DNA of 59,451 nt, the filler included. It is 5 parts of 5 records of this genome, joined end to end, with 100 filler letters (N's around TTAATTAATTAA, not from the genome) between each part and the next. Parts side by side here need not be neighbours in the genome. Positions count along the whole stretch, not along the records: positions 15,551 to 25,128 come from DRR378314_1543; 4 more parts are not named here. One strand, given 5' to 3'. Both the position numbers and the translations under genes were made by a program. Position 1 is the first letter of the stretch, and the number at the start of each line of letters is the position of its first letter. The notes below the pieces were generated by a model. It did not search any database and was not told the DNA's origin. It worked only from the letters and a program-made list of their open reading frames with translations. Of this stretch, positions 5,138-35,508 are shown piece after piece.

Positions 5138-5240
5138 GTCTGGTTTGTTGTCTAAACCAATCTGCTTCGCACAATAGCAAATAAAGCCATTTTGCGACAC
5201 TGGCCCTGGTGATACTCGTGAATCATCTGGTTTTAATTCT

Positions 5241-5894: not shown

Positions 5895-5955
5895 GGGTGT
5901 ATCTCGCCTATATCAGTGTCAAAAAACGTTCAGTTAGTGGTCAATAATCCGGGGG

Positions 5956-8358: not shown

Positions 8359-8370
8359 GGTGACTCCTGG

Positions 8371-8422
8371 TTAAATGATTCGCATTTATCCAGTGGCCGA
8401 ACAGGCAAGCTGAAAAGTGCAA
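8371..8422 (-). promoter_or_regulatory. Putative iron-starvation ECF promoter plus Fur-like box for the transducer
   Basis: Minus strand TGCACTTTT...GTTCGGC (possible ECF -35/-10), followed by GATAAATGCGAATCATTTAA (Fur-like) just before the AGGAG RBS. Confidence 0.45.
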
Positions 8423-8473
8423 CTTCAAGCAAAATTCTTTGAATTTTTAGGCACTGACTTGTCAACGGCTAAT

Positions 8474-10014: not shown

Positions 10015-10024
10015 TCAGCGCACT

Positions 10025-10044
10025 AAATGATAATTATTCGCATC
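10025..10044. promoter_or_regulatory. Fur box upstream of the ECF sigma gene
   Basis: AAATGATAATTATTCGCAT contains the AATGATAAT half-site and sits directly upstream of the fecI-like start. Confidence 0.7.
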
Positions 10045-10296
10045 ATAAATTGGTTGTAATGTTAAAGCAAATAGACCCACGCCATGACCCGGCAGCGTGG
10101 TGTAAAACAGACACGAAAACACCACCGTAATCACCAGCAAGCCAACGGCCCGCTTTTTGGTTCAGTAACGGATCACCCACCAGGTGAAGTGGAAGGTGCG
10201 AACGGAGAACGGTGCTGTCAATGTCTGCTCCGGCTGATTACAGATCTCTCCTCCAATATGGGTGATACGGCGGTGTTGTGAATTTATGAAGTGAGC

Positions 10297-10770
10297 TCAG
10301 TGAAGCGTCCTCACCATGGTTACCCGGTTTCGTGCGGCAAATGGCAGGGATGGCCAGTTCAGGTAGTCAGCGAAAAAATCAGCATGGCGCCGGGGATCTA
10401 TAAGCACGGCAACACATTCCTGGATGTCCCAATGGTCCTCAGTGGCAGCCCGATAGCCCGGGTGTTCCAGACATTCCAGTGCCCGAAGAACCACCGCGTC
10501 CATACCGGCGCGGTTGCCACGATCAGACAGGGCTCGGGATACCAGAATGGCTGAGAGAGTCAGCTCGATATGCATACCGGCATCGTCCCGCGGTTCGTGC
10601 AGGCAGGCCAGGTCAAAAGCGCTGCCTGACAGGGAAATGACGTCTTGCCACTGCTCCATCTCACTGCAGGCGTGGGCATTCTCCATCCAGAACAGCCACA
10701 GGTCTTTGCGTTCGTTCAGCGGCAAGTCTGCGAATTGCTGACGGTGATTGGGGCACAGAAAATTCATCAT
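10297..10770 (-). CDS. Hypothetical Cys/His-containing protein, likely Fur-regulated
   Basis: Start MMNFLCPNHR at 10770 with GGAG RBS. About 157 aa, ending RTLH. Strong Fur box upstream. Confidence 0.7.
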   Translation of the reverse strand: MMNFLCPNHRQQFADLPLNERKDLWLFWMENAHACSEMEQWQDVISLSGSAFDLACLHEPRDDAGMHIELTLSAILVSRALSDRGNRAGMDAVVLRALECLEHPGYRAATEDHWDIQECVAVLIDPRRHADFFADYLNWPSLPFAARNRVTMVRTLH

Positions 10771-10795
10771 GCTCTCCTTGCTCAATCCTAGGGAT

Positions 10796-10814
10796 GATAA
10801 TAATTATCATTAGC
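10796..10814 (-). promoter_or_regulatory. Strong Fur box
   Basis: Minus strand GCTAATGATAATTATTATC matches the Fur consensus at 17/19. Confidence 0.85.
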
Positions 10815-10881
10815 GATTGATGCAAGAAGAACTGTTATCGTTTAACCAGGCTTGGCGGGTAATTTAGCCGGGCCACGAGAT

Positions 10882-12714
10882 CTACTCCACCGTTACACTC
10901 TTCGCCAGGTTTCGCGGCTGATCCACATCCGTACCTTTCAGCACGGCAACGTGGTAGGACAGCAGTTGTAGTGGCACGGTGTAGACGATCGGAGACGTGA
11001 TCGGGTGCACCGACGGCAGCGGCATCACATGGATGCCTTCCTGGGGGCGGACGTCAGCGGCCTGATCGGCAAACACAAACAGCTCTCCCCCCCTGGCGCG
11101 AACTTCCTCCAGGTTGGACTTCAGTTTTTCCAGCAGGTCGTTATTGGGCGCCACGGTGACGACCGGCATTTCGCTGTCCACCAAGGCCAACGGGCCGTGC
11201 TTGAGTTCACCAGCCGGGTAGGCTTCCGCGTGTATGTAGGAAATTTCCTTAAGTTTCAATGCGCCTTCGAGGGCCACCGGGAACATGGCACCCCGGCCCA
11301 GGAACAGGCTGTGATTCTTGTCCATGAAGGACTTCGACATTTCCGCGATATCGGCGTCCAGTGCCAGCACCTGATCGACCTGCCCGGGTAGCAGGCGGAT
11401 CGCTTCAACGATCTCCGCTTCCCGCTGCTCGTCCAGTCCGTTGTGCCGCGCCAGTGCCAGGGTGAAGATCAGCAGCGCGGTCAACTGGGTAGTGAACGCC
11501 TTGGTGGAGGCAACGCCAATTTCCGGACCGGCCTGGGTCATGATTACCAGGTCGGATTCCCGCACCAGGGAGCTGCCGGGCACGTTGCAGATGGCCATCG
11601 CAGCACGGAAGCCAGCCTTCTTCGCCTGGCGCAGGGCGGCCAGAGTGTCGGCGGTTTCGCCGGACTGGGAAATACACAGGAACAGAGTATCTGGCTGGAT
11701 CACGTGTTTGCGGTAGCGGAACTCGGATGCCACTTCCACGGAACAGGGCACGCCCGCCAGTTCCTCGATCCAGTACCGGGCCACCATGCCAGCGTGATAA
11801 CTGGTGCCGCAGGCGATGATCTGAACATGGCGAACGTTTTCCAGCAGGTTGCCGGCCTGGGTACCAAGCGCCTGTTCCAGCACGCGGGTGTTGGTTACCC
11901 GGCCTTCCGTGGTTGCGCGGATGACCCGCGGCTGCTCATGGATTTCCTTGAGCATGAAGTGGCGATACTCGCCTTTCTCTGCCGCATCCTGGCTGTGTTC
12001 AAAACGGGTAACCGCACGTTCCACCGGTTGCTTGTTGCGATCATGAATCTCAATGCGGTCGCGACGGATGTCGGCGATATCCCCTTCTTCGAGGAACATG
12101 AAACGGTCGGTGACCGGCAGTAACGCGAGCTGATCGGAAGCAATAAAGTTCTCGCCAATGCCGACGCCCACCACCAACGGACTGCCTTCACGGCAAACCA
12201 CCATATGGTCTGGCTCGTCAGCATGGATCACCGCCAGGGCAAAGGCGCCACGCAAGCGCTCAATGGCGCTGCTTACGGCTTCGTAGAGGCTGTTGCTCAG
12301 GCGGAACTGCTTTTCGATGAGGTGCGCAACGACCTCGGTATCCGTCTGGGAAGTGAACTCGAAGCCCTCCGCTTTCAGCTCTTCCCGCAGCTCCTGATAA
12401 TTCTCGATGATGCCGTTATGGACAATAGCCAGCCGCTCGCCGGACATGTGTGGATGGGCATTGATCTGGGAGGGCTCACCATGGGTGGCCCAACGGGTAT
12501 GGGCAATACCGGCAGCGCCCTCAAGGCCATTGCCAGTGATGGCATCAGCCAGAGCAGCCACCTTGCCCACTTCACGGGCGCGATTAATGGCTTGCTTGCC
12601 GTCAATCACGGCCATACCGGCGGAGTCGTAGCCGCGGTACTCCAGTCGGCGCAGGCCCTCGAGAAGAATTCCCTGAACATCCCTTTCTGATACCGCACCT
12701 ACAATGCCACACAT
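10882..12714 (-). CDS. glmS: Glutamine--fructose-6-phosphate aminotransferase
   Basis: MCGIVG start, [18 protein letters not shown] and C-terminal [15 protein letters not shown]. Confidence 0.99.
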
Positions 12715-12747
12715 GTCGCTGTCACCTGTCCGTTGAAATCGTTTAAA

Positions 12748-14112
12748 TCACTTTTTCGTCGGCCGTTCCCAGCCGGAAATATTCCGTTGTCGGGCCCGGG
12801 CAACCGCCAGTTCACTTTCCGCCACATCGCGGGTAATGGTGGAGCCGGCACCAATGGTCGACTCGGCGGCAACGCTGACGGGCGCCACGAGTGAGGTATT
12901 GGAACCTACGAATACATTGTCACCAATAACGGTTTTCGACTTATTCACACCATCATAATTACAGGTGATGGTTCCTGCACCCACATTTACGTTACGGCCA
13001 AGTGAGGCATCGCCCACATAACTGAGGTGGTTGATCTTGCTGCCCTCACCCACATCGGCTTTCTTGGTTTCAACAAAGTTACCCACCTTGGTGTTGGCCG
13101 CCAGCCGGGTGCCTGGCCGTAGACGGGCAAACGGTCCGATACTCGCGCCTGCACCCACTTCCGCACCATCAAGCAGCGAGTGAGCTTCGATGGTGGCCCC
13201 GGCCGCAATGTGGCTGTCCCGTATCACACATCCCGGCCCGATGCGGACACCGTCGGCCAGGGACACCTTGCCTTCAAACACGACATTAACATCGATCAGA
13301 ACATCCTGGCCCACGGACAACTCGCCGCGCACGTCAACCCGGGCGGGGTCGGCCAGGGTTGCCCCTTCAGTCATCAACCGGTCCGCTTCCCGGCGCTGCA
13401 CCCAGCGCTCAAGCTCAGCAAGTTGAAGGCGGTTGTTAACGCCCTGGACTTCGAACTCACTACCCGGCTGAGCAACGGCGATGTCCACGCCGCGGTCAGC
13501 GGCCATGGCGATGATGTCGGTAAGGTAGTACTCGCCCTGGGCGTTGCGGTTGGAGAGCTGTGGCAACCAATCTTTCAGGTGGCGCGCTGACACCGCCAGA
13601 ATGCCGGTATTTACTTCCCGGATCTGCCGCTGAACCTCGGTCGCATCCTTCTGCTCGACGATCGCGCACACCTTGCCGCTGTCATCCCGAAGGATACGCC
13701 CGTATCCGTCGGGCGTTTCCAGGTTCACTGTCAACAATGCGAGTGAACGATCACTTACCTGGGAAACCAATTTTTGGAGGGTTTCCTTTCTGGTTAATGG
13801 CACGTCACCGTAAAGAATCAAAACCCGCGCCTCATCCGGCAACCCCGGCAGCGCCTGAGCAACCGCGTGGCCCGTACCCAACTGCTCTTCCTGCAACGCC
13901 CAGGTGAGATCGTCGGCGGGGGTGATGTGCCGGACCGCTTCCGCACCATGACCAATCACGCCATGAATACCGGATGCGCCCAACTGGCGCGCAGTATCGA
14001 TAACATGGTGAAGCATGGGCTTGCCCGCCACCCGATGAAGAACCTTCGGTAGCGACGATTTCATTCTCGAACCCTGGCCAGCAGCCAGAATCACAACGTG
14101 AAGGGGAGTCAT
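12748..14112 (-). CDS. glmU: Bifunctional UDP-GlcNAc pyrophosphorylase / glucosamine-1-P acetyltransferase
   Basis: Start [19 protein letters not shown] at 14112. Carries QLGTGHAV, hexapeptide repeats, HLSYVGDA and [11 protein letters not shown]. Confidence 0.98.
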
Positions 14113-14155
14113 ATGAGTACCACGCTCCGGATCGGTAGCCAGTTTCAAAGCCTGA

Positions 14156-14225
14156 AAATAAAAAAACCGCACCCTTGGTTGCCTGACAACATTACGCTGT
14201 TCCCAGGCGACTCAGGATGCGGTTT
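14156..14225 (-). terminator. Long-stem intrinsic terminator after the atp operon
   Basis: Minus strand AAACCGCATCCT...AGGGTGCGGTTT followed by a T-rich tract, between atpC and glmU. Confidence 0.7.
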
Positions 14226-14253
14226 CGGTGATCGGCAGTCCCGAACAGAATGC

Positions 14254-14676
14254 TTAACGCATCTTGTTCCGCAGCTGCTGGATGGTTCGAAGCTGGGCAA
14301 CAGCTTCGGCCAACTCAGCGGCGGCACGGGAATACTCAAATTCACCACTTTGGTTGGCGAGTGCCTTCTCAGCTTCACGCTGAGCCTCGATCGCCGCTGC
14401 TTCGTCCACATCCTTGGCACGGACGGCAGTGTCCGCGAGCAGCGTCACCAGATTCGGCTGAATTTCCAGATAACCACCAGACACGTAGAGGATTTCTTCC
14501 TCTCCGCCCTGCTTGATTATCCGGATGGGGCCCGGTTTCAGCTGAGTCAGCAGAGGCGTATGACCCGGGGCAATACCCAGGTCACCTTCTGAGCCGGCTG
14601 CGATCAGCATTTCAACCAATCCGGAATAGATCTTTGTTTCGGCACTTACCACGTCACAATGCACGGTCATACCCAT
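14254..14676 (-). CDS. atpC: F1F0 ATP synthase epsilon subunit
   Basis: [23 protein letters not shown] and [10 protein letters not shown]. Follows atpD. Confidence 0.98.
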
Positions 14677-14723
14677 GTTGTTGCCTCTTTGATCGATCCG
14701 GAAACAAGCGCATGAGGCTTAGA

Positions 14724-15450
<727 letters not shown>

Positions 15451-15550
15451 NNNNNNNNNNNNNNNNNNNNNNNNNNNNNNNNNNNNNNNNNNNNTTAATT
15501 AATTAANNNNNNNNNNNNNNNNNNNNNNNNNNNNNNNNNNNNNNNNNNNN
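15451..15550. other. Artificial contig spacer
   Basis: 100 nt: N-run, TTAATTAATTAA (stops in all six frames), N-run. Confidence 0.97.
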
Positions 15551-18500
15551 TCGCAAGCGGAGATTGTCGTCCGAAAGATGCCGCAAAGCTCTCCTACGTC
15601 TTGCGCGCCAACGGGCCTTCAGGTGCGCTGGATCATACTGCTCGTTTCGATCTGCACAGTCGCGAGAAGGAAATGCAACGAAAGCACCCAGAGCGCGCAA
15701 AATTTAGAACAGCAATAAATAAAACTGCGTATCATGCACAAAAACCGGGAGGAACGCGATGGAATTTTCGAACATGGCGAGCAGCATGCCAGCGCGGCGC
15801 TACACGCTCAAACCGCGCGGCAACAGCCGCAGGCGCAACGGCGAGCTCGGCACGGCAAGCACGTCTCCACCTGCGCACCGCTTCTCGCCTCTTATTTCTC
15901 GCAATCTCCCAGGATGCGCTGCATTCGTTCATTTCCGCAAGTTTCAAGATGTTGGTATGTACTATTTTCAGGGTTCGCACCACCAGCACACCACTCCAGG
16001 CTGCGCAGCTGTAGCACCTGTTTGGACGCGACCGCACACGTACACACCGTAGGGAGTGCCGGGCGCCTCGGGCGGTGCAGCCGAAACGGCCACACCTCAG
16101 AACTGACCTTTGCGACTTGATAAGCACAGCGCTCCGCACCAGCCGGTAGCGTGTTTTGCGGTCCAGGGCTCTCCCAGAGAAGACGCTGAAGATAGTAGAG
16201 CAAAGACAGAGTGCAAGTTTCATGCGAACGCATTGTGCCGGCGTACGGAGCGGTTGCACGCGTTGGTTAGGCGACGGTGGGTCGGTGCGGAGCTAGTTTT
16301 TCGGCGCAGCGCGCAGGTAGCACGTTTCGCAGTCGCCGCGTTTCCATGCGCCAAGTTAAAAGCACCAGACAAAGCAGCGAGAGCTCACAAATACAGAGTA
16401 ATTCAAAACGCATCGAGTATCACTACGGACTGAACTTCAGCAGTGCAAAACAAGGCGAGCGAGCGGTTCGTGGTGCCCTCTCAGCTGAGCACGGCGCAGC
16501 GCAAGGGCTGGCCGAGGAGCGCTCGGTGCGCGAAACATCGCGGCAAGGCGTTCAATTTGCCGAGGACGTACCCCGCCGAATATTTCCCTCTCTAATGTAC
16601 TATATTCTTTGACTAGCAAAAATTTCAGCGTGCTAAGGAATTGCGCAAAGGATTAGGTGTGCGAAAGCGAGCACGGCGGAATGACGTGGCGATGCCCTGC
16701 GCGTGGCTTCCAAGGACACTGGTACTCGCTGGCGCAGTGACAGCTAAGGCCAGTGGCGCGTCGCTGGTGCCCGTGATCCGCGTTATCCAAGAAATCGAAG
16801 GCTCGCGAGCGTTCATTAATTTCTGGCCCTCACGCGTGCTACTCACTCGCAGAATGCAGCACTGTTGCCACTGCGATCGCTTCGCCCATTGTGCAAAGGG
16901 AAGCCGCGACCCTCGCGTCCTTTGCGCGCCTATTCTATCTTGGTTCGGGCGTGTCGCTATGCGCAGAACGGCTGAGCTGTGGGAGCGCTAGAAGAAGACT
17001 GACAGGAAGCGGCGTAAGCGAGACTGCCTTCGCAAGCCGCCTGAGCTTTGTGCGGGTCAGAAGTCTCGGCTGCCTTTCTTTGTGGATTGCTGTTGCTCAC
17101 TGCCTACAACCGCGTGCTGTTGGTGTGCTGACGAGAACTTGCGCGAACGGGGTGTCTTTAACGGACAAACCGGATATCTATGCGTGCTTTTCCGATGAAG
17201 TATATATCTCACAGTTGTTGGAATACACCCGAGCGTAAGCAGGCTGCTTTCTTGGCCTTTTTTTTTTTTTTGGTGCGAAGTTTGGTCGGGGAGCGCAGGA
17301 GGGTGCGAGCTTGCTCGCATGTATTTGCTGGAGGGTTTGGGCGCGCCATGCAAGCAACACCAAGATTCCTGGACTCCCTGCTGCGTGGCCTGGTTGCGTC
17401 TGATGTGCACGGCAGTTTCGCGAGTACTGCGTGCATAGCAAGCTTTGGCACACGCTTCCAAGCACGCTCAGCGCATCTTAGCAACGCGCCAACTATGTGA
17501 TTGGCCGGTCGAAAGGCAGAGGTGCGTTGCGGAGAGGAACGCGAAAGTCGGCAGGAGCTGGCCCGCGCGCACTCGTGCGAGCGCCAGCGGACGCCTCGGC
17601 GGTGATCGAGCGCGAGCAAATGTGCCATTGCACCCGGGAGCGCCGGAGCGCACTGCGGAAGGCGCCGGCGACAACCGCCTCGTCCTTCTCACTGCTCGCT
17701 GGCGCACCCAAGCCGCGCCTCGTCTCACGTGCGAGATGTGACAGCGCCACCTTTGCATAGAGAAGCGCGCGGGCCACCTGGCGCGCTCGACATGGATTTC
17801 CGGGTCAGAGACGTTTCCGCGTTTCGATTTTCCTTTTCTGCGGCGTTCTTAATCGTCTCGTTCCTTTGTGGGTGGTGCGCACTGCCACTTCTGCTTTGCG
17901 CGCTGCTACGTTTTCAGTCGCACCGATTCGACGGATCGGTTGCGAGTGGGTGCTTTTGGGTCGCTATGGGCACGACGACTCTGCTATACAAATTCGGTTA
18001 TGTGGACACGGAAGTAGGGTTGCGGAATACAATTGCGGAGTGCGGTTAGTTTTGCAATAGCACACTCGGCCATGCAACACTGGGTTCTATCTCTCGCGGT
18101 GCTCGCGCCGCAGTGGAGCAGTTCCAAGTTCCAGAGGAGGCCCAACGGCCCGACTTTGCGTTTCGTCGACCATTGATCTGGTACGCGGCTTTGTCGCCGG
18201 TCAGCGCTCCGAGGACGCAGTTCAAATTTTCCTTAGTGCTTGCGTCTCATTGCTGGCGTTGCACAAGCGGTGCAGTATTCTGTACTCTGGGGTGGTGGTG
18301 ACGTCTGCTGCGGCCCACCGTTGCAACCGGCTCCGCGCAGCCAGCACGCGCACCGCACACTGCCGAGCGCGTTCTCTTCTGCGCGCCAGTCTTGTCACTG
18401 CGCAAAGCAGCGCCGCCTCAACACCCTTGTCTCAGCGCTCATTTGTGCTGTGTAGCTTTGGTGCACGAATGTTAACTTCTTCGCTTTTGCGCGCCATTCT

Positions 18501-19973
18501 CTCTTTGTCTTTGTACGCACGCACGTTGTTTGCACGATGCGAGCAGTGCTGCGTCGCGCGCCTGTTGCTCTCTGCGGGCACTCGGTTGTCCGCGCTCGCG
18601 TTATCTTGCCCGCTCGTGCTCGTCGTGACGCTACTTGGCGGGTTAGTCGAGGCTGCAGAGTTGCGTCGACTGCGTTTTTCGTGCGCAGAACGCGAAAGCG
18701 AGGACGAGGTTCCTCTGTACTTCCCTTGCTTTGTGTTTCGTTTGATGTGCGAGTCAAAGAATAGCGCATTAGTCTCGCTTGCGGGTGCTCCGCGGGGAAA
18801 CCGTCAGGGCGATGTGTGTCGTTGGAGTCGGAGACTCCGCAACTGCTTTGGCGCAGCGAGCCGGCGCGGCCGTGGCGAAGAGTGGCGCTGGCGCATCCCC
18901 CCTTGCCTCGCTTTGCACAGCGTTTCTGTCGCGCAAGCGCCCGCACACAGCATGTGGTGCACCACACAATATATTTGTGCGCAAAAACATACCTCTCTGG
19001 ACTGCCGTGCGAGCGGTCAATTTGAGCTTGTTGGTAGGCTGGTGGTTGCTTTGTAGTGCTGCTGGGTGCGGGCGTTGAGGGAGCGTTTTGGTTCCCCTCT
19101 GGGTTTCTCGTGGGCGTTTGGTCGACGCGGTGATCGCCCTCTTTTTTTTTTTTTTGCTTTCTACATTTGTGGCGTGGGGTTCTGCGCGCGCCAGTTTCAC
19201 GCGCGATCGGAGACTGTAGGCTCTTGGTGCCCATCTGCGGTGTAATTGCATTTTCGCATCCCGATGTAGCCTTGTATTCGGAGCGTTGGGGAGATGGAGG
19301 GCCGGCGCGGCTGCTCAGAGTTTGTGTTTGCCTTTGGCAGTCCGGATCGGCCTGTTCTGTCGGCGCCCTCTAGCCTTGCGCGCCGTGTACCGCAGCTTAC
19401 CTGTGCGCCGGCTGGCACATGTTGCTTTCGAAGCGAGTCTTCTCACGACCGTTATTTCACTGCAGTGTCGTAACGATAGACGTAGACTTGGCATGTTGCA
19501 CTAATTCGTTGAGTAGTGCGCTGGGGTGCGTGCTGGCTTGCTGTGGAGCGTGCCTGCGCACCGCTGCTCTCGTCGCCTGCCCACGCCGCTAGGCGCTGGT
19601 ATAGCGCTCGTTCCGCGCGCTTGCTTGCTGTTGAGCTCCAGTGCTCTGCCGACGGGTCCGGGACGAGCGAGGACGCTGGACGGCCTCATGTTATAGTAAG
19701 CGCTTACGTGCTCTCCTACCTGCGACTGTTGTCTCGTATTCAATGTGCGATTTATAGGAACAGAGGGCAAGATCGGAGATTGGTTTCGTCAACGGCTTTC
19801 AGCGCTTGCGTTCCGCGGTTTTCGTTGCTGTTCGCTCGTGGCGTTCGCAGCGCGTTCCTCCTCCGGGTTACGCAGTCCACGTTCCGGACGAGCGCCCTTG
19901 ATCGGCAAATCGATTACGGAACGGCGAGGACGCTCGCGTGCTCTCTCGCTCGCTCTATCGTATTACTTCGTTG

Positions 19974-22900
19974 ATGGCTCCTACGGCTGAGCCGCCTTCG
20001 CCGGGCTCAGGGCCCCGCGTTCCGCGCTCGCCGCGCTCGCCGCGCTCGTTCCGCGACTTTGCGCGCGATGCGAGCGGGCTCGCCGTCGTTGGGCGCCTGC
20101 GCCCGGCGAAGCGCGGCGAGAAGCGCGGCTGGCGCGTTGAGGACGGAACGCGAATGCTGCTGGATGCGGCCAAGGGAAACGATGCGGACGTGTGGGGCGA
20201 GTACAGCGTGGAGCTGCCACAGCTCTTTTCTGCTTCTACTTCGAATAAGCAGTTTGTGAGCGAGGCGCGCGTGGAGGAGGTAGTGGCTGACGTTGCCGAC
20301 GGCCGGCACGTGGCGATCTTTGCGGCCGGAGGGCACGGCAGCGGGAAAACGCACACGCTCTTCGGAAACGGGTCGGTGGAGCCGAGCGATTGTCTCGGCA
20401 TCGCCGTTCGCACGGTTTTCCGCGAGGTTGAGGCGCTGCGCCGCGAGTACGAGAGCGTTGAAGTTTCGTGCGTGTTTTTCCGGGTCGAGCACAGCGGGCG
20501 TGTTCTGGATGTCCTGGGCAGCGCTTCGGCAAAGAATGGCAGCGCGCTGCCGGCTGTGGTGTCGTCGCCGCTGCTGCCGGAGATCCAGCGCATCGAGGTC
20601 AGCGACGAGGCGTCTTGTACCAAGGTGCTGAAGAACGCCTTTGCGTGGTTGAAGAAGAGCGTGAAAAAGGGGGTTGCGAATGAAGGCGTTGGCGATGTCG
20701 TGCGAATCTCGGTCAAGCGTGTGCTGAAAGCCGGCGACAAGCCCGGCATTGCATCGGTGTCGCTCGTGGATACCGTAGACATCGAAGACGAGGTGCAGAA
20801 TGACGGGGCTGCTGCTGCTGGAGACCCGAACATGGCGGCGAAAGCGCGCAAGGTAAGTGCATTGCTCTGTGCTTCTGGGCGCGACCCGATCGTGAGCAGC
20901 TGCTCCTTTGCCTCGCGCAGGGTTTGCCAATGCAGAGGGCGAGTCAGGTACTGCACATTGTGCGCTCCGCCATCTTCCTCTGTTGTGTCGCTGGAATGAA
21001 AGAAGCACTGGGCTATCAGAGCAATAAGGCGGACGGAGTAGCCTGTGTACACGCCGTGCATGCGCTGTTTTTGCGCGAGCGTTGAGCAAAGCGCGACGGC
21101 GTTCCAGTCGACGTTGCTGTCCGTTTGGTGGTATGGATTCCTTCCCCTCTGATGGATGCAATGGCTCCTTGTTGATTTTTGAACGATTTTGTGGTGCGCG
21201 TGTTCCGTGGTTTCTTTGTCAAGGTGGTTGATCTGCGCGCCGGAGCTGGGAAGACCAAGGTGTTGCGGCCGAAGCGCATGTCGCGCGACGACGGGGAAGG
21301 CGTTGTTGTCAGTGATATCGACGACACGTTTGTGGACGATACCACCGCTGAAGACGCGCCGCTGACGCGCATTCTCCGGCCGGTGTTTACGCGTTCAACG
21401 CGCTCGATGTTCATTTGCACGCTTTCCGACGCGCGGAATCACACACAAGTGACGAAGGAGACTCTCCAGGTCCGTGCGAGCACGCGGGGCTGTGGTGTCG
21501 GGCTTGCCAGGCTTGTGCACGTATATAGCGGCCGTTGTGTCGTCGCGCTTGCGCGAATGTGCACGAGAGAGAGGGTGAGAAGTTGCGACATGGATCGCTG
21601 TCTTACCGCCAACGCTTTCGCCCCGAAGCGCTCATTCATTTCCCGCTTCCCTCTTTCCGGAACCCTCTCCGCGTTGTACCGCTTTGCGTGGGAACGCGAC
21701 ACCTCGCGCGGGCACTGTTGCGTATTCCTCGCCCATGCCCTCGGTTAAGGGTTAGCCGCATGCTGACGCTCGCGTTGCGCGTGTTTCCCTGATGGGGGCG
21801 CAGGTCGGAGCGCGCTTGGCGATGCTGTCGCGCATCCGTGTGGAAGGGATCCAGGAAGACGAAGAGCCGGACGAGGACTCGTTTTTGCGCGAGTATCTCG
21901 CAGAGATCCAGCGGCTTCGTGACATGCAGGAAGAGCTGCATTTCTGGCTTCAGAATTCACGCGAGGCGCGCGTGTACCGGCGAGTGATTGCGTGGGTGCG
22001 CCAGCGACGGGCGTCGAATCCGCGCAAGTCGCTGCAGATATCGATGTCCGAGGAGCAGGACGCGCGGATGCGGCAGATCCTCGAGTCGCGGCGCGAGCGC
22101 GCGGCCGAGGAGACGCCGATTGCCGTGCTGGTTCGCGTGCGGCCGCTCAACACGCGTGAGCTGCTCCGCGGCGACACGCTGCCGTGGAAGTGGACGGACG
22201 ACTCGATGATTCTCAAAGACAACCGCGGTGACGAGAGCTCTCCGCCGGAGTCGCTGCTGCGCAACAACCCGAAAGCGACGGCGCAGCAGCAGCGCAAGCG
22301 GGTCGCCGCCGCGTCGAAAGCTGCGGCCGGCCAGGCGTCGGCAAAGTCCAAGTTTTACCGCGTGCAGCGCGTGTATGGACCGAAGCAGGAGACGTCTGAC
22401 ATTTACGGCGAGGAGATCCGCAAGAATGTCGATGCTGCTGTGCGCGGGATCAACACGACGATTTTCGCGTACGGACAGACGGCGTCGGGCAAGACGTTTA
22501 CGATGCTTGGCGACGGGACGCATCCCGGGGTGATCCCTCTCGCGCTGCGCGACGTGTTTGGGGCGATTTCGCGCACGCCGTCGCGCGACTTTGTGGTGCG
22601 CGTGTCGTATTTCCAGATCTACAACGAGGTGGTCTCCGACTTGCTGAACGAGAACGAGGAGACGCCAAAGATTGACATTCAGATGACGGACGGCGGGCTG
22701 ACGATTGGCGGGATGCGCGAGGAAGTGGTGACGTCGGCCGAGCAGGTGCTGCACCTGATCCACGCGGGACAGGCGCGACGGCAGATTGGCTCGCACGACA
22801 TGAACGAGTTCTCGTCGCGGTCGCACACTGTGTTCCGCCTCGTTCTCGAGAGCCGGATTCGCGCCGAAGACGACTCGCTTTCGATGCTGCGCATGGTTAC

Positions 22901-24995
22901 GGGCGGCACCGAGAACCGGCGGTCGCTGAACCCGAAGCTCGGCCCCGTGCGCGTGTCGACGATCAATCTCGTCGATCTGGCAGGCTCGGAGCGCGTCTCG
23001 CAGACGCACGCGACGGGCGAGCGGCTCAAAGAGGGCGGGTACATCAACAAGTCGCTGATGACGCTGGGAGCGGTGATCAAGGCGATTTCCGAGGGCAACG
23101 AGGCGCGCGCACCGTTCCGCGACTCGAAGCTCACGCGCATTCTGCAGCCGAGTCTGGGCGGGAACGCGCGCACAACGATCATCTGCACGCTGTCGCCGGC
23201 GTGGGAAAACGTTGGCGAGTCGCAGTCGACGCTGTACTTTGCGATGCGCGCGAAGCGCATTGTGAACCGGACGCGGGTGAACGAGACAGAGGGCGACGAG
23301 AAGCAGCTGGTGCAGTACCAGCGACAGAAGCAGGATCTTGTGCAGCGCGTGAAGTATCTGCAGAAATGCGTGCTCGCGTCGGACGCGTTTGCTGCGATGC
23401 AGGATCTGTACCGCCGCGTGCAGGAGCGGCGCGAGGCCATGCAGCGCGCCGCGCCGGTAATCCAGGCGCATGTCCGCGGCCACCAGCAGCGGAAGCGGTA
23501 CGCGGAGATGCGCGAGGCCGAGGAAGTGAAGGAAGCGAAGCGGCGGCAAAAGGCGGAGGAGAAGCGGCGGCGCGAAGAAGCCGAACTTGCCAAGCGCGAG
23601 GCCGCCGAGCGCGCGCGCGCCGAGAAGCGCGAGCGGGAAAAGGCGCGCGTCGCCGCCGAGCGCGAGAAGCTGCAGGCGAAACTGAAGCGCGGGCGCGAGG
23701 TGGCGGACGCCGCGGAGGAGCCGCGCGTCGAGGCTGCGCCGCCCGCGCCTGCGGCGATTCCGCGGCGACGCAAGACGCAGCGGCGGCGCGGCGAATGGGG
23801 CGTGCTGGTGACCACGGAAGATTTCCTCGACGAGTTCGAGGTTGTGTCGTCGCTTGGGTCGGGAACGTTTGCCAAGGTGAAGAAGGCGATTCACAAGGGG
23901 ACGCTCAAGGACGTTGCGATCAAGATTATGGACAAGAACAAGATTATCGAGGAGATGCAGATTGAAGACTATGTGCACGGCGAGATCAAGTGCATGCAGA
24001 CGATCCCGAAGCATCCTCACATTACGAATTTGCTCGAAGTGTTTGAGACCGACGAGAAAATTATTCTGATTCTCGAGTTTGCCAACGGCGGAATGCTGTA
24101 CGACAAGATGACGTCGAAGGAGCAAGGTGGGAAATTCCCCGAGGAGACCTCCAAGTTCTACTTCCAGCAGCTGATGCTTGGTCTTGCGCATTGCCACCGC
24201 CACGGCATTTGTCACCGCGATCTCAAGCCGGAGAACCTCTTGCTGCACAACAATGTTGTGAAGATCACAGACTTTGGGTTCTCGACGATCAAAGAGGAGA
24301 AAGGCAAGCACTCCACGCTGTGCGGGACTCCCGTTTTCCTTGCGCCTGAAATCATCGACACCATGGGCGGCGACAAGCCGTACGAAGGGTTCCCGGTGGA
24401 CATCTGGGCGTGCGGCATTATTTTGTACTCTATGATTACCGGCAAGGTTCCGTATCCCGGCGCCGACGTCTTTGCGATGATGAAGTCGCACATGACGCGC
24501 ACGCTGCAGTTCGGGCCCGAGTTTTCCGAGGGTGCAAAGGAGCTCATCACGCGCATGCTAGATAAGAATCCAACGACGCGCGTCACGGTCGAAGACGTCC
24601 TCAAGGACGAATGGTTCTGCTCCGGCCTGGACGCGACGAACACGTACGTAGCAAAGCACAACGTTGGCGTATTGACTTCGCTGCAAGAGGCCGAGGAAGC
24701 GGCCGCAAGCGCGGGCGATCCCGCGGCCGCCGGTTCAGGGGGCAAGCCGATGCCGAAGCGGCAGAGCGGACCCGCAGCAGCGCCCAAGGCTGCACCGAAG
24801 GCTGCACCCAAGGCTGCACCCAAGGCTGCGCCCAAGGCTGCTGCGCCGGCACCTGCAGCTGCGGGAGGCGCTGCCAAGACGGGTGCGGCGAGAAAGCCAG
24901 CAGGCGCGAAAACCACGCCCGCAAAGGAGACGCCACGGACGACGACTGCGAGGTGCGCTTGTTGCTCGCGCAGCTGGCTGGTAGCGATGGTGTAG
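19974..24995 (+). CDS. Spliced eukaryotic gene: degenerate kinesin motor, kinesin-7-like motor, IQ, ER/K helix, SNF1/CIPK-like kinase and AAPK tail
   Basis: Exons 19974-20852, 21224-21469 and 21804-24995 join through phase-0 GT-AG introns (AAG|gtaagt...aag|GTG and CAG|gtccgt...cag|GTC) into ~1,438 aa. Motor 2 has GQTASGKT, SSRSH and DLAGSE. Kinase has GSGTFAKV, VAIK, HRDLKPEN, DFG and GTPVFLAPE. The 3' end may instead splice at ~24953 to an exon beyond the contig. Confidence 0.8.
24777..24836 (+). repeat. Coding 12-bp tandem repeat, (AAPK)x5
   Basis: GCAGCGCCCAAG GCTGCACCGAAG GCTGCACCCAAG GCTGCACCCAAG GCTGCGCCCAAG. Confidence 0.9.
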
Positions 24996-25128
24996 AAGCT
25001 AGCGAGGGACGCGTGGCAGTTTCGTGCAGAGCCGTCGTATTTCTGAGGATGCGGGGATGCGTACTGCAAGTGAAAAGAAAGGAGGAAGGGTAGGCGTGTG
25101 CGATATCTGCGAAGGCCGCGCGTTTGCG

Positions 25129-25228
25129 NNNNNNNNNNNNNNNNNNNNNNNNNNNNNNNNNNNNNNNNNNNNTTAATTAATTAANNNNNNNNNNNNNNNN
25201 NNNNNNNNNNNNNNNNNNNNNNNNNNNN
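25129..25228. other. Artificial contig spacer
   Basis: N-run, TTAATTAATTAA, N-run. Confidence 0.97.
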
Positions 25229-33500: not shown

Positions 33501-35508
33501 CTCTTCCATGCATAGTTCTTGTCATATGTCATGAACGCGAAGAGCGACGTCAATCTGGCGACAGAGCGCGAGTCTGGTACTGGGCGAATACTCCGTTACG
33601 GACACACTCTCCGCTCTCGCTGTCGCGGACGATGGTGCCGAATATTCTCGACGCTAACGCGCATCGACTTCATACAGCTATTCAGATGTAGCGCTTTGTG
33701 CCCATCGGGTGCTTGAGAGAGTCGTGCAAAGGGAACGGTTTGTGGTTGTTTGTCGTCTGTGTATCCTCTGACGCTTCAGCTCTGTCTTTTGTGCAATGCA
33801 GCACGCGCTGATGTGAGCGCGGTGCGCGGTGGTGGCGCCGATTCGCCGCCGGTCCTGTTTGCGCCGGTGCGCTCGGTTGGCTCTTGCCGCGATGATATCT
33901 ACGCCGTGCACGTGCATCCGCACGAAAGTCATTTCCTAGCGGCCGGATGCGATACATGCGTCCGTATCTTTTCAAGGGATAGTGGAGAAGAAGTCCGAGA
34001 TTACAGGGGTACGCGCGTTGCGATTTCTTGTGTTGCACAGTGGACTACCGGGATTGGCGGCGCAGCTGCTTCGTCTTGAGCAGAGAAGCGCGTTGTGTCG
34101 CTTCGTTCACACAGAGATCACCACTGTTGGCGTTGTTCCTCGTTTCGCAGAATGAAACCAATATGCATACCGCTGTCTCCTGGCGGGAATCCATCGGTAC
34201 CCATGGCATAGCTTCGACTGTTGGCCATTAGGTTTCGTGTGTTTGAGCTCCTGAGCAATCTCGAGAGCTCGTTCTCTCTTTTCTCACTGCCGGATCCGCC
34301 GTGTTCTCGCTTTACATGCGTCACGGCGAGCTGGGTTTCTCTCAGTATCCATGACCTGTAAAGCTATGTATCTTTTACAAGAAAATGTTTTATTTTCTTT
34401 TTGTAGAAGGGCGTTGAGATGAGCTCGCATTCGCTGTAATGAGTATTTTGACTTGTGGGGCGCTCTCGCTTCCGCTCTGTTCCTCTGTCCACATCGCGAG
34501 AGATCGCGTGTTTGGAACGTGTCCGCCGACGCTTCATTCACCTTCTGCGCTCCTCGCCGTGCTCACATATGATGATACTGTCTCCGTACACTGCGTCGGT
34601 GCACAAATGCTGTCATCCCGACTTGCGCTTTGTGTACGTGTATGCTGCGTGCTTGCCGGATCAGGTCACTCAATGGCGGTTACATGCGCACAGTTTAGCC
34701 CGTCGGGGTCGATGGTGGCGAGCGGCGGGAAGGACCGCTCGATCCACTTGTGGGACATCGTGAGCGGGTCGTCGCTCACGGTTCTCCGCGGACATCTCGC
34801 CGACGTGTCTGGTCTCGCATTTGCGCGGTTTGGGACGAAGTTGGCGAGGTGCGCAATAGAACACGTCAGGACGTTTCCTTGAAATGAAAAGTTACACTCC
34901 CAGATTGCTCCATACATAAACATGTGCATTACCTCATTAGAATTGTATTGAATGCCGGTCTGGGGGTTTCGTTGCGCACTGTGGTCGCCATTGCGCATGC
35001 AGCTCTGGGAAAGACAACACTGTCCGGCTGTGGGATCTGCGCGAGCGCCGCGCGGTATCGCGCTTCAAGGGCCACCAGCACACGCTCAAGAGCTTCATTC
35101 GACCTTCCTTTGGCGCTGAGGAAAACGTAATTTTTTGTGGCAGCGAAGACGGCCGTATTGTAGCGTGGGACGTGCGGAACGAGCGCATTCTGAGGACGCT
35201 AAGTGGCCACAAAGGTCCCGTGTATCGCGCGGAATGGAACAGGTGCGACTGGGCCCGCCGCGCCTCACACGCACTTTGGGCTGTTCTTTGGCTTTCCTCC
35301 TTCTCCTCGCTGCGCTTTTGCTGTGTGCTCACCGTGTTACGCGCCGCTCGTCCTTTCTTGTGGGGTACTGACGTCTCGGCTGCGCTGTAGGAGCCAAACG
35401 GTGCTGGCTTCGTGCGCGCAAGACGGAGTGGTGAATGTGTGGGATTTCGTTCCGCCAGTGCCGCGCGACGACGGCGCTTCTCCTTCACCTCCTGCGTCGG
35501 AGACGTAG
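30577..35508 (+). CDS. LisH-CTLH-WD40 repeat protein, multi-exon, 5' end undefined
   Basis: LisH exon EILVILAQHLKSEGYTATYWTLQ (30577-30645), CTLH RKLRKAILDGDWVEAE and FLFQVYRQQFLEVIE, RLVSMLKQAVAYQ, and several WD repeats (GHSMAVTCAQFSPSGSMVASGGKDRSIHLWD, GHKGPVYRAEWN, LASCAQDGVVNVWD). Stop at 35508. Confidence 0.8.

What the first reader, a model, noticed from the sequence alone, without database searches (positions are those of the whole stretch)
19974..24995. Twin-head kinesin fused to an IQ motif and a protein kinase in one polypeptide
Seen: three ORF-track fragments (19938, 21179, 21792) join through two canonical phase-0 GT-AG introns into one ~1,438-aa frame. The order is kinesin-like domain 1 (~20080-21830), intact motor 2 (~22116-23267, kinesin-7/CENP-E-like MNEFSSRSH and RLKEGGYINKSL), IQ (~23448-23501), ER/K helix, intact Ser/Thr kinase (~23835-24617) and a basic tail. 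Motor 2 and the kinase share one uninterrupted exon, so that fusion does not depend on my splice model. Known: motor-kinase fusions are established for myosin III, while kinesins normally have one motor per chain and bind kinases in trans. Inference: a self-propelled, possibly calmodulin-gated kinase that is an intramolecular pseudo-heterodimer. I do not recognise this architecture from any named family.
Basis: partly seen in the sequence, partly recalled or inferred. Interest (0 to 1): 0.82.

Follow-up and report, generated by a model that had tools for sequence, protein, structure and literature searches.

The report
Kinesin motor fused to a kinase
One expressed gene of an unidentified eukaryote encodes a degenerate kinesin-like head, a complete kinesin-7-type motor, an IQ motif on a long charged helix and an intact Ser/Thr kinase, a combination my searches of very large protein collections did not find elsewhere.

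Summary
An intron-less 5,200-nt contig from a public run joins 19757-20848 | 21220-21466 | 21801-24953.

The single chain reads as follows:
- **Domain 1:** a kinesin-like domain with its P-loop kept, switch I lost, and switch II and the microtubule-binding elements degraded.
- **Motor 2:** a complete kinesin-7-type motor, closest to CENP-E.
- **Linker:** an IQ motif and an ER/K-rich stretch on one predicted 110-residue helix.
- **Kinase:** an intact CAMKL-type kinase, closest to CIPK, SNF1 and MARK.
- **Tail:** an Ala/Pro/Lys-rich segment.

Two corrections:
- The stop at 24995 lies in a fourth intron. The transcript continues 646 nt off the contig, so the true C-terminus is unknown.
- The window is five unrelated contigs glued with linkers. 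The gene lies on a 9.6-kb contig (15551-25128).

Four large protein searches found no kinesin-then-kinase relative. One reverse-order chytrid protein looks like a merged gene model.

Motility, calmodulin gating and the "intramolecular heterodimer" idea remain untested. I rate this a real, new domain architecture built from known parts.

The parts
18119..18180 (+). 5'UTR exon (at least 62 nt). Only its last 30 nt were placed.
   Evidence: a loose end of 62 letters lies before 19757. Its 30-nt consensus matches window 18150-18179 exactly, with 0 of 100 shuffles matching.
18181..19757 (+). 5'UTR intron, 1,577 nt, GT..AG
   Evidence: Searches show GT at 18181-82 and AG at 19756-57. One search shows the transcript contig resuming at 19757.
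19758..20852 (+). Exon 1. The CDS starts at the ATG at 19974, with an in-frame stop just upstream of 19902. It encodes aa 1-293.
20853..21223 (+). Intron 1, 371 nt, GT..AG, phase 0
   Evidence: joint 20848>21220, skips 371, cut +4.
21224..21469 (+). Exon 2 (aa 294-375)
21470..21803 (+). Intron 2, 334 nt, GT..AG, phase 0
   Evidence: joint 21466>21801, skips 334, cut +3.
21804..24952 (+). Exon 3 (aa 376-1424 plus 2 nt). It holds motor 2, IQ, the ER/K helix, the kinase and the tail in one uninterrupted exon.
   Evidence: 3,153 nt of the transcript contig match with 0 mismatches.
24953..25128 (+). Start of intron 3. The donor GT is at 24953-54 and the intron runs off the contig end.
   Evidence: 646 further transcript letters are unlike the window; they are absent from the window; donor sequence and contig end.
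20079..21833 (+). Kinesin-like domain 1 (aa 36-385), spread over exons 1-3. It is a degenerate pseudo-motor.
   Evidence: a local kinesin HMM matches aa 35-222 (E 2e-16) and aa 337-381 (E 1.1e-5, across the exon 2/3 joint); hhalign probability 99.5 over 329 columns; full-length BLAST alignments to kinesins at 22-24% identity; the listed Atlas hits are kinesin clusters, best score 0.93.
20328..20351 (+). P-loop of domain 1 (GGHGSGKT, aa 119-126), with the GxxxxGKT pattern kept
21834..22106 (+). Helical linker or 'neck 1' between domain 1 and motor 2 (aa 386-476)
   Evidence: Composition only; its structure was not tested.
22110..23282 (+). Motor 2 (aa 478-868). It is a complete kinesin-7-type motor with P-loop GQTASGKT (22473-22496), switch I SSRSH (22812-22826) and switch II DLAGSE (22974-22991).
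   Evidence: Pfam E 2.7e-95, full profile. E 7.7e-117. CENP-E 1.3e-77; inside the clade of kinesin-7-named rows, SH-aLRT 99; motifs.
23283..23453 (+). Neck and short helical segment after motor 2 (aa 869-925)
   Evidence: helix over residues 6-41 of the modelled piece.
23445..23501 (+). IQ motif (IQxxxRGxxxR at aa 928-938)
   Evidence: PF00612, 22.5 bits against a cut-off of 20.3, E 8.5e-5; motif match.
23499..23714 (+). ER/K-rich helix (aa 941-1012)
   Evidence: 60% E/R/K, up to 72.5% in a 40-aa window, with 17 i/i+4 opposite-charge pairs; one predicted helix covers piece residues 43-152 (protein aa 902-1011), with 10-residue pLDDT block means of 79-98 (90 or more over most of it).
23835..24617 (+). 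Ser/Thr protein kinase domain of the CAMKL type. VAIK, HRDLKPEN, DFG and APE are all present.
   Evidence: Pkinase E 1.5e-70, profile 1-263 of 263. CIPK23 4.2e-61, SNF1 1.9e-54, MARK3 1.3e-50; motifs.
24666..24950 (+). Ala/Pro/Lys-rich low-complexity tail with five AAPK repeats. The protein continues off-contig.

Best explanation
This is a real, spliced and expressed gene of an unidentified GC-rich eukaryote. It encodes one polypeptide of at least 1,424 residues.

**Proposed mechanism (inferred)**
- The catalytic engine is the second domain, an N-terminal-type kinesin-7 (CENP-E-like) motor with every nucleotide-switch motif intact. By family rule it should be a plus-end-directed microtubule ATPase.
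- Through a roughly 110-residue helix carrying one IQ motif and an ER/K stretch, it carries its own active CAMKL-type kinase (close to CIPK, SNF1 and MARK). The kinase retains an activation-loop threonine.
- I infer that the motor places the kinase on or along microtubules. Phosphorylation of microtubule-bound substrates would then be spatially targeted in cis, doing what kinesin-7 motors otherwise do in trans with partner kinases.
- The IQ/ER-K helix would act as a semi-rigid spacer and a possible calmodulin or light-chain site.
- The first kinesin-like domain is a pseudo-motor. It probably binds nucleotide but has lost the gamma-phosphate sensor, so it is an accessory or regulatory head rather than a second engine.

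**Shown:** the gene model, the splice joints, the domain identities and the motif states.

**Inferred:** motility, direction, kinase targets, calmodulin binding, oligomeric state and the role of domain 1.
For: - **Transcript:** an intron-less 5,200-nt contig spans the 5'UTR exon, exons 1-3 and beyond, with 0 mismatches and GT..AG joints.
- **Frame:** it is continuous over 1,424 codons with no stop.
- **Domain 1 needs all three exons:** its last conserved kinesin segment (aa 337-381) is encoded across the exon 2/3 joint. The best switch II candidate spans the exon 1/2 joint.
- **Motor 2:** full-length Pfam match at E 2.7e-95. P-loop, SSRSH and DLAGSE are present. The best solved relative is CENP-E at 1.3e-77, against 8e-65 for the next family. 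In the quick tree it sits inside a 22-row clade (SH-aLRT 99) that holds all 10 rows I labelled kinesin-7 and excludes the KIF7, KIF17, kif3a, KIP3, K39 and kinesin-14 rows.
- **Kinase:** full-length Pkinase match at E 1.5e-70. VAIK, HRDLKPEN, DFG and APE are present. The 48 best solved relatives are all CAMKL-type (CIPK, SNF1, MARK, AMPK, SIK, BRSK, SNRK). A Thr sits two residues before the conserved Cys-Gly of the activation loop (alignment).
- **IQ:** above the Pfam cut-off.
- **Helix:** the long helix is predicted with 10-residue pLDDT block means of 79-98, mostly 90 or more.
Against: - Run X1 is only guessed to be RNA. It is a single run from a single study, held as contigs, so it cannot show transcript ends, isoforms or protein.
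- The C-terminus is missing, so further domains or regulatory elements are unknown.
- No ortholog was found. There is therefore no evolutionary conservation to show that the fusion or domain 1 is under selection.
- Only a short neck helix follows motor 2, with none of the long coiled-coil stalk typical of CENP-E, so the oligomeric state is open.
- The IQ match is short (19 residues, 2.2 bits above the cut-off) and lies in an Arg/Gln/Lys-rich helix, where such a pattern could arise by composition.
- No functional assay of any kind exists.
Confidence: 0.6

Rival explanations
1. The chain works as a monomer in which the pseudo-head (domain 1) and the active head (motor 2) form an intramolecular heterodimer, as in Kar3-Vik1 or Kar3-Cik1 but in one polypeptide. 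It would walk or dwell on microtubules while calmodulin on the IQ gates the kinase.
For: - Two kinesin-fold domains sit in one frame, separated by about 90 mostly helical residues.
- Only a short neck helix follows motor 2, then an ER/K-type helix. By recalled knowledge that kind of helix does not dimerise, which would fit a monomer.
- Domain 1 keeps a P-loop.
- In the 38-row tree domain 1 joins motor 2. The branch separating the pair from the other 36 rows has SH-aLRT 83.
Against: - Domain 1 has no recognisable switch I or alpha4/L12 microtubule-binding region, so microtubule binding by it is unproven.
- Its tree position rests on an end branch of 10 changes per column, which the tool flags as unsafe.
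- Its own motor 2 is only the 73rd-best phmmer hit to domain 1, and is not among the 112 BLAST subjects out of 521 sequences.
- Nothing here tests the oligomeric state or calmodulin binding.
Confidence: 0.15
2. A non-motile microtubule-anchored signalling scaffold. The kinesin domains would only tether the kinase to microtubules, as the kinesin-4 relatives KIF7 and Costal2 do for the kinase Fused in trans (recalled knowledge).
For: - One of the two kinesin domains is clearly degenerate.
- Motor 2 carries two large loop insertions relative to the family profile, at about aa 505-560 and 727-760 (alignment).
Against: Motor 2 keeps the P-loop, switch I, switch II and a full-length high-scoring match. 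This differs from motors known to have lost motility.
Confidence: 0.12
3. A young, lineage-specific fusion with little or no selected function. It would be a recent exon-shuffling or gene-merger product that is transcribed but dispensable.
For: - No ortholog or same-architecture relative appeared in the four protein searches.
- In a published survey of 1,624 kinesins, most of the 105 kinesin architectures were specific to one organism (PMC2867816, passages read).
Against: - At least 1,424 codons are open.
- All catalytic motifs of the motor and the kinase are intact.
- Splicing is precise and the contig has a depth figure of 80.6.
- Domain 1 is highly diverged from any kinesin (21-25% identity), which argues for age rather than recency.
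Confidence: 0.08
4. An artefact. This could be a chimeric assembly, or read-through joining two neighbouring genes (a kinesin-like gene and a kinesin-kinase gene, or a kinesin gene and a kinase gene).
For: - The window comes from a draft in which unrelated contigs, including bacterial ones, are mixed.
- Merged gene models with several kinesin or kinase domains do occur in databases.
Against: - Motor 2 and the kinase lie in one uninterrupted exon.
- The genomic contig (with introns) and the transcript contig (without them) are different molecules, and they agree at every base over 4,492 nt.
- Domain 1's C-terminal kinesin segment is encoded in exon 3 itself, so no gene boundary can lie between domain 1 and motor 2.
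Confidence: 0.04

Closest known systems
Kinesin-7 family (CENP-E; plant KIN-7/NACK; fungal Kip2)
   Same: Motor 2 has an N-terminal-type motor with all switch motifs. Its best solved relative is CENP-E. Its nearest named cluster representatives are plant KIN-7O and a Chlorokybus kinesin. It lies inside the clade of kinesin-7-named rows. By recalled knowledge, kinesin-7 motors work with kinases in trans: CENP-E with BubR1, and NACK1 with the MAPKKK NPK1. For CENP-E with BUB kinases I saw only the listing and abstract start of PMC6028960.
   Different: - The kinase here is covalently fused and is a CAMKL type, neither BubR1 nor a MAPKKK.
- There is no long coiled-coil stalk.
- A degenerate kinesin-like domain precedes the motor.
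- An IQ/ER-K helix follows the neck.
Myosin III / NinaC (kinase-myosin-IQ)
   Same: A cytoskeletal motor, IQ motif(s) and a Ser/Thr kinase sit in one chain. Myosin III clusters are the nearest Atlas neighbours by language-model features (score 0.89, a lead only). Myosin IIIa proteins also appear among the kinase-domain hits.
   Different: - The motor is a kinesin (microtubules), not a myosin (actin).
- The kinase is C-terminal here, whereas it is N-terminal in myosin III (recalled).
- The kinase is CAMKL-like here. By recall, the myosin III kinase is STE20-like.
- The likeness is analogy, not homology of the architecture.
Kar3-Vik1 / Kar3-Cik1 heterodimers (an active kinesin-14 head paired with a non-catalytic motor-homology domain; recalled)
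   Same: An active kinesin head is combined with a catalytically dead kinesin-fold domain.
   Different: - Those are two polypeptides joined by a coiled coil, with C-terminal motors. Vik1 lacks a nucleotide site altogether.
- Here both domains are in one chain, are N-terminal-type, and the dead domain keeps a P-loop.
- Pairing of the two heads is not shown.
CAMKL kinases: CIPK/SnRK3, SNF1/AMPK, MARK
   Same: These are the best sequence relatives of the kinase domain (4.2e-61 to 1e-46). Catalytic motifs and the activation-loop Thr are kept. MARK kinases act on microtubule-associated proteins (recalled).
   Different: No NAF/FISL, UBA or KA1 module was found by Pfam in the part of the protein that the window holds. 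The C-terminus is missing. No known CAMKL kinase carries a kinesin.
KCBP (calmodulin-binding kinesin-14 of plants; recalled)
   Same: A kinesin with a calmodulin-type regulatory helix next to the motor.
   Different: KCBP is a C-terminal-motor kinesin-14. It has MyTH4-FERM domains and a non-IQ calmodulin site, and no kinase domain. Its partner kinase KIPK acts in trans (PMC4265151, listing and abstract start only).

Membership tests
Kinesin superfamily, active motor (motor 2) | Full-length motor domain with P-loop GxxxxGK[ST], switch I SSRSH and switch II DxxGxE | tested here: met
   Pfam profile 2-327 of 327, E 2.7e-95. GQTASGKT, SSRSH and DLAGSE found.
Kinesin superfamily, active motor (motor 2) | Microtubule-stimulated ATPase and motility | not testable with these tools
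   Needs a biochemical assay.
Kinesin-7 (CENP-E/KIN-7) | Motor domain groups with kinesin-7 members in a phylogeny | tested here: met
   The result comes from the quick tree of 37 rows, because the careful search did not finish. Motor 2 lies in a 22-row clade (SH-aLRT 99) with all 10 rows I labelled kinesin-7, and it excludes the kinesin-2/-4/-8/-14/K39 rows. Caveats: every row was picked as a hit to motor 2. Labelling Dictyostelium K4 and Kip2 as kinesin-7 is from recall. One row named kinesin-II (Culex) also falls inside the clade. CENP-E is the best PDB hit.
Kinesin-7 (CENP-E/KIN-7) | Long coiled-coil stalk and tail cargo or kinetochore-binding regions | tested here: not met
   After the motor come a helix of about 36 residues, then an IQ/ER-K helix and a kinase. 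The C-terminus is off-contig, so the test is partly open.
Kinesin superfamily (domain 1) | Kinesin fold-level homology over the whole domain | tested here: met
   Local HMM E 2e-16 and 1.1e-5. hhalign probability 99.5 over 329 columns. BLAST alignments of about 370 aa to kinesins. The listed Atlas hits are kinesin clusters.
Kinesin superfamily (domain 1) | Catalytic switch I and switch II motifs | tested here: not met
   No SSRSH is present in domain 1. The switch II position reads VVDLRAGAG instead of DLAGSE. Profile positions of about 205-305 are not matched. Only the P-loop GGHGSGKT is kept.
Eukaryotic protein kinase, active | Lys of VAIK, Glu of helix C, HRD catalytic loop, DFG and APE | tested here: met
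   VAIK, HRDLKPEN, DFG and APE found. The helix-C Glu aligns with that of CIPK23 (alignment). Pkinase profile 1-263 of 263.
CAMKL group (AMPK/SNF1/MARK/CIPK) | Closest sequence similarity to CAMKL kinase domains, and an activation-loop Thr | tested here: met
   The best 48 PDB sequences are all CAMKL-type. A Thr lies two residues before the Cys-Gly-Thr-Pro of the loop. Its equivalence to AMPK Thr172 is recalled.
CIPK/SnRK3 | NAF/FISL motif C-terminal to the kinase | tested here: inconclusive
   Pfam finds no NAF in the 1079-aa frame. Up to about 215 further residues lie off-contig.
IQ calmodulin-binding motif | IQxxxRGxxxR consensus | tested here: met
   IQAHVRGHQQR at aa 928. PF00612 at 22.5 bits against a cut-off of 20.3.
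IQ calmodulin-binding motif | Binds calmodulin or a light chain | not testable with these tools
   No calmodulin reference is available to the complex tool. A binding assay is needed.
ER/K single alpha-helix | Long E/R/K-rich helix that is stable as a monomer | tested here: inconclusive
   60-72.5% E/R/K with 17 i/i+4 charge pairs. The monomer model gives one helix over protein aa 902-1011 with 10-residue pLDDT block means of 79-98. A monomer model cannot tell a single helix from a coiled coil.
Myosin III | Myosin head domain | tested here: not met
   No Myosin_head match. The resemblance is functional only.

The most novel reading that the evidence does not exclude
A self-contained, single-chain two-headed kinesin. 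A nucleotide-binding but hydrolysis-dead head and an active kinesin-7 head would pair within one polypeptide and move processively without dimerising. It would carry a Ca2+/calmodulin-gated CAMKL kinase on a rigid ER/K lever, making it a microtubule counterpart of myosin III and a natural 'walking kinase'.
Probability: 0.12. Interest if true: 0.88.

Novelty: new variant of a known kind. Interest (0 to 1): 0.62.

Why it matters
- **Kinesin-7 and kinases.** By recalled knowledge, kinesin-7 motors recruit or activate kinases as separate proteins: CENP-E with BubR1, and NACK1 with NPK1. A natural covalent fusion of a kinesin-7 motor with an active kinase is a 'Rosetta-stone' case. It links this motor family to CAMKL (MARK/SNF1/CIPK-like) signalling, and it offers a one-gene system for studying spatially targeted phosphorylation on microtubules.
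- **Head coordination.** A dead head and a live head in tandem in one chain, now backed by a spliced transcript rather than a gene prediction, is a ready-made test of how much a second, non-catalytic head contributes to kinesin stepping. It is also a template for engineered motors.
- **Unsampled diversity.** No relative closer than about 55-58% motor identity was found among roughly 15 billion predicted proteins. Motor architectures in poorly sampled eukaryotes therefore remain incompletely catalogued.

Tried and rejected
- **Own genome:** none is held for this window.
- **Metagenome contig scan for related loci:** the machine gave no answer three times, so environmental relatives and the missing 3' exon could not be sought.
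- **Scan of prokaryote genome contigs:** 81 pattern matches, 0 confirmed relatives.
- **Sequencing runs:** one holder was listed, and no listed holder is on record as RNA.
- **Complex prediction of 'neck 1' (aa 386-477) with 'neck 2' (aa 862-929):** no verdict, score 0.00. This is evidence neither for nor against binding.
- **Internal duplication as the origin of domain 1:**
  - Not supported by similarity ranking. Its own motor 2 ranks 73rd by phmmer and is absent from the 112 BLAST subjects of 521 sequences.
  - Weakly suggested by a tree with an unsafe long branch.
  - I leave this open.
- **Careful (bootstrap) tree:** it did not finish in the time limit, so the quick tree was used.
- **P0025 (Boothiomyces, 1,795 aa):**
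  - It is the only protein of 269 with both a motor and a kinase match.
  - It reads Rad21 N-terminus, then kinase (712-984), then a truncated kinesin (989-1218).
  - The order is reversed and it looks like a merged model, so I reject it as a relative of this architecture.
- **Top multi-stretch hits:** Pfam was run on 16 of the 150 proteins listed, and all 16 are multi-kinesin or multi-kinase proteins. The cluster look-up on 10 of the 150 names the three best-scoring multi-kinesin hits as beetle or mosquito proteins.
- **Literature:** eight searches found no paper describing a kinesin with a fused kinase or tandem kinesin motors in one chain.
- **Kinesin survey PMC2867816:** its main text has 0 occurrences of 'kinase'. 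Its list of all 105 architectures is in a supplementary file that I could not open.
- **Structure of domain 1:** not predicted, because the spliced protein is not a contiguous translation of the window.

Full report
**What the window is**

The 59,451-base window is not one molecule. It is five contigs glued by identical linkers of 44 N, TTAATTAATTAA and 44 N, at 15451-15550, 25129-25228, 40163-40262 and 49219-49318.

- Contig 1 (1-15450) is bacterial. It carries two TonB-dependent receptors, a FecR-type and an AraC-type regulator, a DAO-family oxidoreductase behind a glycine riboswitch, and GlmS- and GlmU-like genes.
- The finding lies wholly on contig 2 (15551-25128, 9,578 bp, 60.5% GC).
- Neighbouring contigs say nothing about its context.

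**Checking the observation**

- The 1079-aa frame 21756-24995 carries three matches:
  - a full-length Kinesin match (profile 2-327 of 327, E 2.7e-95);
  - an IQ motif above Pfam's cut-off (22.5 against 20.3 bits);
  - a full-length Pkinase match (E 1.5e-70).
- The exon-1 frame carries a partial Kinesin match (profile 28-197, E 7.7e-13).
- The proposed splice sites are canonical, and both introns are phase 0.

The decisive evidence is one public run, X1. Its type is guessed as RNA, and it is held as Logan contigs. Of the two X1 records that were laid on the stretch, one, of 5,200 nt, lies on 19757-20848, 21220-21466 and 21801-24953 with 0 mismatches and 0 gaps. It skips 371 and 334 nt at GT..AG with cut offsets of +4 and +3, which gives exactly 20852/21224 and 21469/21804.

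The window has the introns and this record does not. The two are therefore independent molecules that agree base for base, including across the motor-kinase stretch. The most economical reading is a spliced mRNA.

**Corrections to the gene model**

- **The C-terminus is off-contig.**
  - The same record continues for 646 letters after 24953 that occur nowhere in the window.
  - A GT donor sits at 24953-54.
  - The apparent stop at 24993-24995 is therefore intron read-through.
  - The in-window model is 1,424 codons with no stop, and the true C-terminus, up to about 215 more residues, lies off the contig.
- **There is a 5'UTR exon and intron.**
  - The record carries 62 letters before 19757.
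  - Their consensus maps to 18150-18179.
  - This defines a 5'UTR exon and a 1,577-nt GT..AG intron.
- An in-frame stop precedes the ATG at 19974.

**Anatomy (residues of the spliced model; window coordinates in the parts list)**

- **aa 1-35:** a Pro/Ser/Arg-rich N-terminus with three SP sites.
- **aa 36-385:** kinesin-like domain 1.
  - A profile built from 56 kinesin hits matches aa 35-222 (E 2e-16) and aa 337-381 (E 1.1e-5).
  - The second match runs across the exon 2/3 joint.
  - A global profile alignment gives probability 99.5 over 329 columns at 21% identity.
  - BLAST gives alignments of about 370 residues to kinesin motors at 22-24% identity.
  - The listed Atlas neighbours of the exon-1 part are kinesin clusters, best score 0.93.
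  - The P-loop pattern is kept (GGHGSGKT).
  - No SSRSH exists, and the switch II position reads VVDLRAGAG, across the exon 1/2 joint.
  - Profile positions of about 205-305 (switch I to alpha5) are not recognisable.
  - It is therefore a whole but degenerate kinesin-fold domain, a pseudo-motor.
- **aa 386-476:** a charged, largely helical linker.
- **aa 478-868:** motor 2.
  - GQTASGKT, SSRSH and DLAGSE are all present.
  - It has two loop insertions relative to the profile.
- **aa 869-1011:** a single-sequence AlphaFold2 model of aa 860-1045 has mean pLDDT 83.5.
  - It gives a 36-residue helix followed by one 110-residue helix (aa 902-1011).
  - The long helix has 10-residue pLDDT block means of 79-98, 90 or more over most of it.
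  - It carries the IQ motif (IQAHVRGHQQR at aa 928).
  - Its 72-residue ER/K stretch is 60% E/R/K, with 17 i/i+4 opposite-charge pairs.
- **aa 1045-1313:** the kinase. VAIK, HRDLKPEN, DFG and APE are present. The helix-C Glu and an activation-loop Thr align with those of CIPK23.
- **aa 1330-1424:** an Ala/Pro/Lys-rich tail with five AAPK repeats.

**Family assignment: motor 2**

- The best solved relative is CENP-E (1.3e-77). The next family, KIF3B, scores 8e-65.
- The nearest named cluster representatives are plant KIN-7O and a Chlorokybus kinesin at 51-52% identity.
- I built a tree from 40 named or environmental hits plus motor 2. Four partial rows were dropped: KIF17 turtle, KIF20B, KIN-7C and kif22 Boothiomyces.
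- The careful search did not finish, so the result comes from the quick tree of 37 rows.
- That tree puts motor 2 inside a 22-row clade with SH-aLRT 99.
- The clade holds all 10 rows I labelled kinesin-7. It excludes the rows named KIF7, KIF17, kif3a, KIP3, K39 and kinesin-14.
- Caveats:
  - The rows were all chosen as hits to motor 2.
  - Two of the kinesin-7 labels (Dictyostelium K4, Kip2) rest on my recall.
  - A Culex row named kinesin-II falls inside the clade.

**Family assignment: kinase**

The 48 best solved relatives of the 60 shown are all CAMKL-type:

- CIPK23 and CIPK24 (4.2e-61 to 1.1e-58)
- SNF1 (about 2e-54)
- MARK1-4 (about 1e-50)
- AMPK, SIK3, BRSK2 and SNRK

Pfam finds no NAF, UBA or KA1 module in the part of the protein that the window holds.

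**Origin of domain 1**

- Its best hits are CENP-E-type kinesins, such as a Volvox protein at phmmer E 9.4e-14.
- Its own motor 2 ranks only 73rd (E 6.7e-9). It is also absent from the 112 BLAST subjects among the 521 sequences searched.
- In a 38-row tree it joins motor 2 (SH-aLRT 83 for the separating branch). However, its end branch is 10 changes per column, which the tool flags as unsafe.
- Whether it arose by internal duplication is left open.

**Is the architecture known?**

| Search | Scope | Scored or listed | Kinesin plus kinase |
|---|---|---|---|
| | Word-seeded, 5.8 billion clusters, lengths 584-1861 | 331 at E<=0.001 among 7,993 scored; 120 listed | 1 (P0025) |
| | Same collection, lengths 1862-5000 | 158 among 8,000; 120 listed | 0 |
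| | Lengths 30-583, junction region only | 916 among 8,000; 120 listed | 0 (all kinesin only) |
| | Full HMMER scan, 1.84 billion representatives | 150 listed | see below |

- **P0025.**
  - It reads Rad21 N-terminus, then kinase, then a truncated kinesin.
  - The order is reversed, and it is probably a merged gene model.
- ** in detail.**
  - The best scores belong to proteins with several kinesin domains or several kinase domains.
  - Pfam on 16 of the 150 found 0 with both families.
  - The three best-scoring multi-kinesin hits are beetle or mosquito proteins by name.
- **BLAST check.**
  - I ran BLAST with the motor and the kinase against all 269 proteins fetched up to that point.
  - It found 218 with a motor match, 52 with a kinase match, and 1 with both (P0025).
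- **No close relative.** Nothing closer than 51-58% motor identity exists in these collections, and the window's own protein is not in them.
- **Limits.**
  - Only the top of each list is visible.
  - A fusion of more distant kinesin and kinase types could score below rank 150.
- **Literature.**
  - Eight full-text searches found no description of a kinesin with a fused kinase or of tandem motors in one chain.
  - The kinesin survey PMC2867816 reports 105 architectures among 1,624 kinesins, most of them specific to one organism.
  - Its main text never uses the word 'kinase' (passages read).
  - Its full list is in a supplement that I could not open.
  - The Atlas places the motor-IQ-kinase frame nearest to myosin III/NinaC clusters (0.89, a lead only). 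That is a fitting analogy rather than kinship.

**How it most likely works**

*Shown:* one spliced message and one open frame; a dead-looking kinesin head; a fully equipped kinesin-7 motor; an IQ-bearing long helix; and a fully equipped CAMKL kinase.

*Inferred from family knowledge:*
- N-terminal kinesin-7 motors are plus-end-directed ATPases.
- CAMKL kinases need activation-loop phosphorylation.
- IQ motifs bind calmodulin-type light chains.
- ER/K helices act as stiff spacers.

I therefore commit to a motor that carries its own kinase along or to the ends of microtubules. Phosphorylation of microtubule-bound substrates would then be targeted in cis, with the IQ/ER-K helix as a spacer and a possible Ca2+ input, and domain 1 as an accessory or regulatory head (confidence 0.6).

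It is not excluded, but nothing tested here supports it.

**Verdict**

This is a real, apparently unique domain architecture made of known parts, so I rate it a new variant of a known kind.

Its interest is moderate to high for motor and signalling biologists. That interest is tempered by three things:
- It is known from one unidentified organism.
- The C-terminus is missing.
- One-off kinesin architectures are common.

Noticed in passing
window 15451-15550, 25129-25228, 40163-40262, 49219-49318: Four identical artificial linkers (44 N, TTAATTAATTAA, 44 N) join five unrelated contigs with GC contents of 57.9, 60.5, 54.5, 62.6 and 51.9%. Features must not be read across them.
   Followed up: yes
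window 1-15450 (contig 1): Bacterial gene set in a window that also holds eukaryotic contigs. It has two TonB-dependent receptors (445-2595, 5956-8370, minus strand), a FecR-type sensor (8474-9526), an AraC-type regulator (2659-3660), and GlmS-like (10882-12747) and GlmU-like (12748-14211) genes. The draft is mixed or contaminated.
   Followed up: partly
window 5042-5140 (-) and 3621-5042 (-): A glycine riboswitch aptamer (Rfam RF00504, 73 bits, E 2.3e-13) lies directly upstream of a DAO-family FAD oxidoreductase gene on the bacterial contig.
   Followed up: no
window 40263-49218 (contig 4): Long uninterrupted frames for an M24 peptidase (41210-42613), an inosine-uridine nucleoside hydrolase (43642-44727, minus strand), an M20 peptidase (45596-47677) and an arginase-family protein (47744-48733). 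The contig is 62.6% GC and its origin (bacterial or intron-poor eukaryote) was not resolved.
   Followed up: no
window 34941-35387 (+), contig 3: An isolated WD40-repeat exon sits in a contig otherwise poor in long frames. It looks like an intron-rich eukaryotic gene. Contig 3 begins with a poly-T run at 25229.
   Followed up: no
window 21957-24557 (-): An 866-aa open frame lies antisense to exon 3. I read it as a shadow frame of a GC-rich coding exon, not a gene, but I did not test it.
   Followed up: no
window 23112-23143: A second contig of run X1 (2,270 nt) matches only these 32 bases with 1 mismatch, within the conserved motor segment. It is probably another kinesin transcript of the same sample.
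   Followed up: no
proteins P0121, P0123, P0124 (beetle), P0122 (mosquito), P0156: Database proteins with 2-7 kinesin-domain stretches in one predicted chain. P0156 also has a transposase HTH domain. Tandem kinesin domains therefore exist as gene predictions elsewhere, but I did not check whether any is backed by transcripts.
   Followed up: partly
window 15551-18118 (contig 2 upstream): About 2.6 kb upstream of the 5'UTR exon has no frame with a family match that I examined. No other gene was recognised on this contig.
   Followed up: partly
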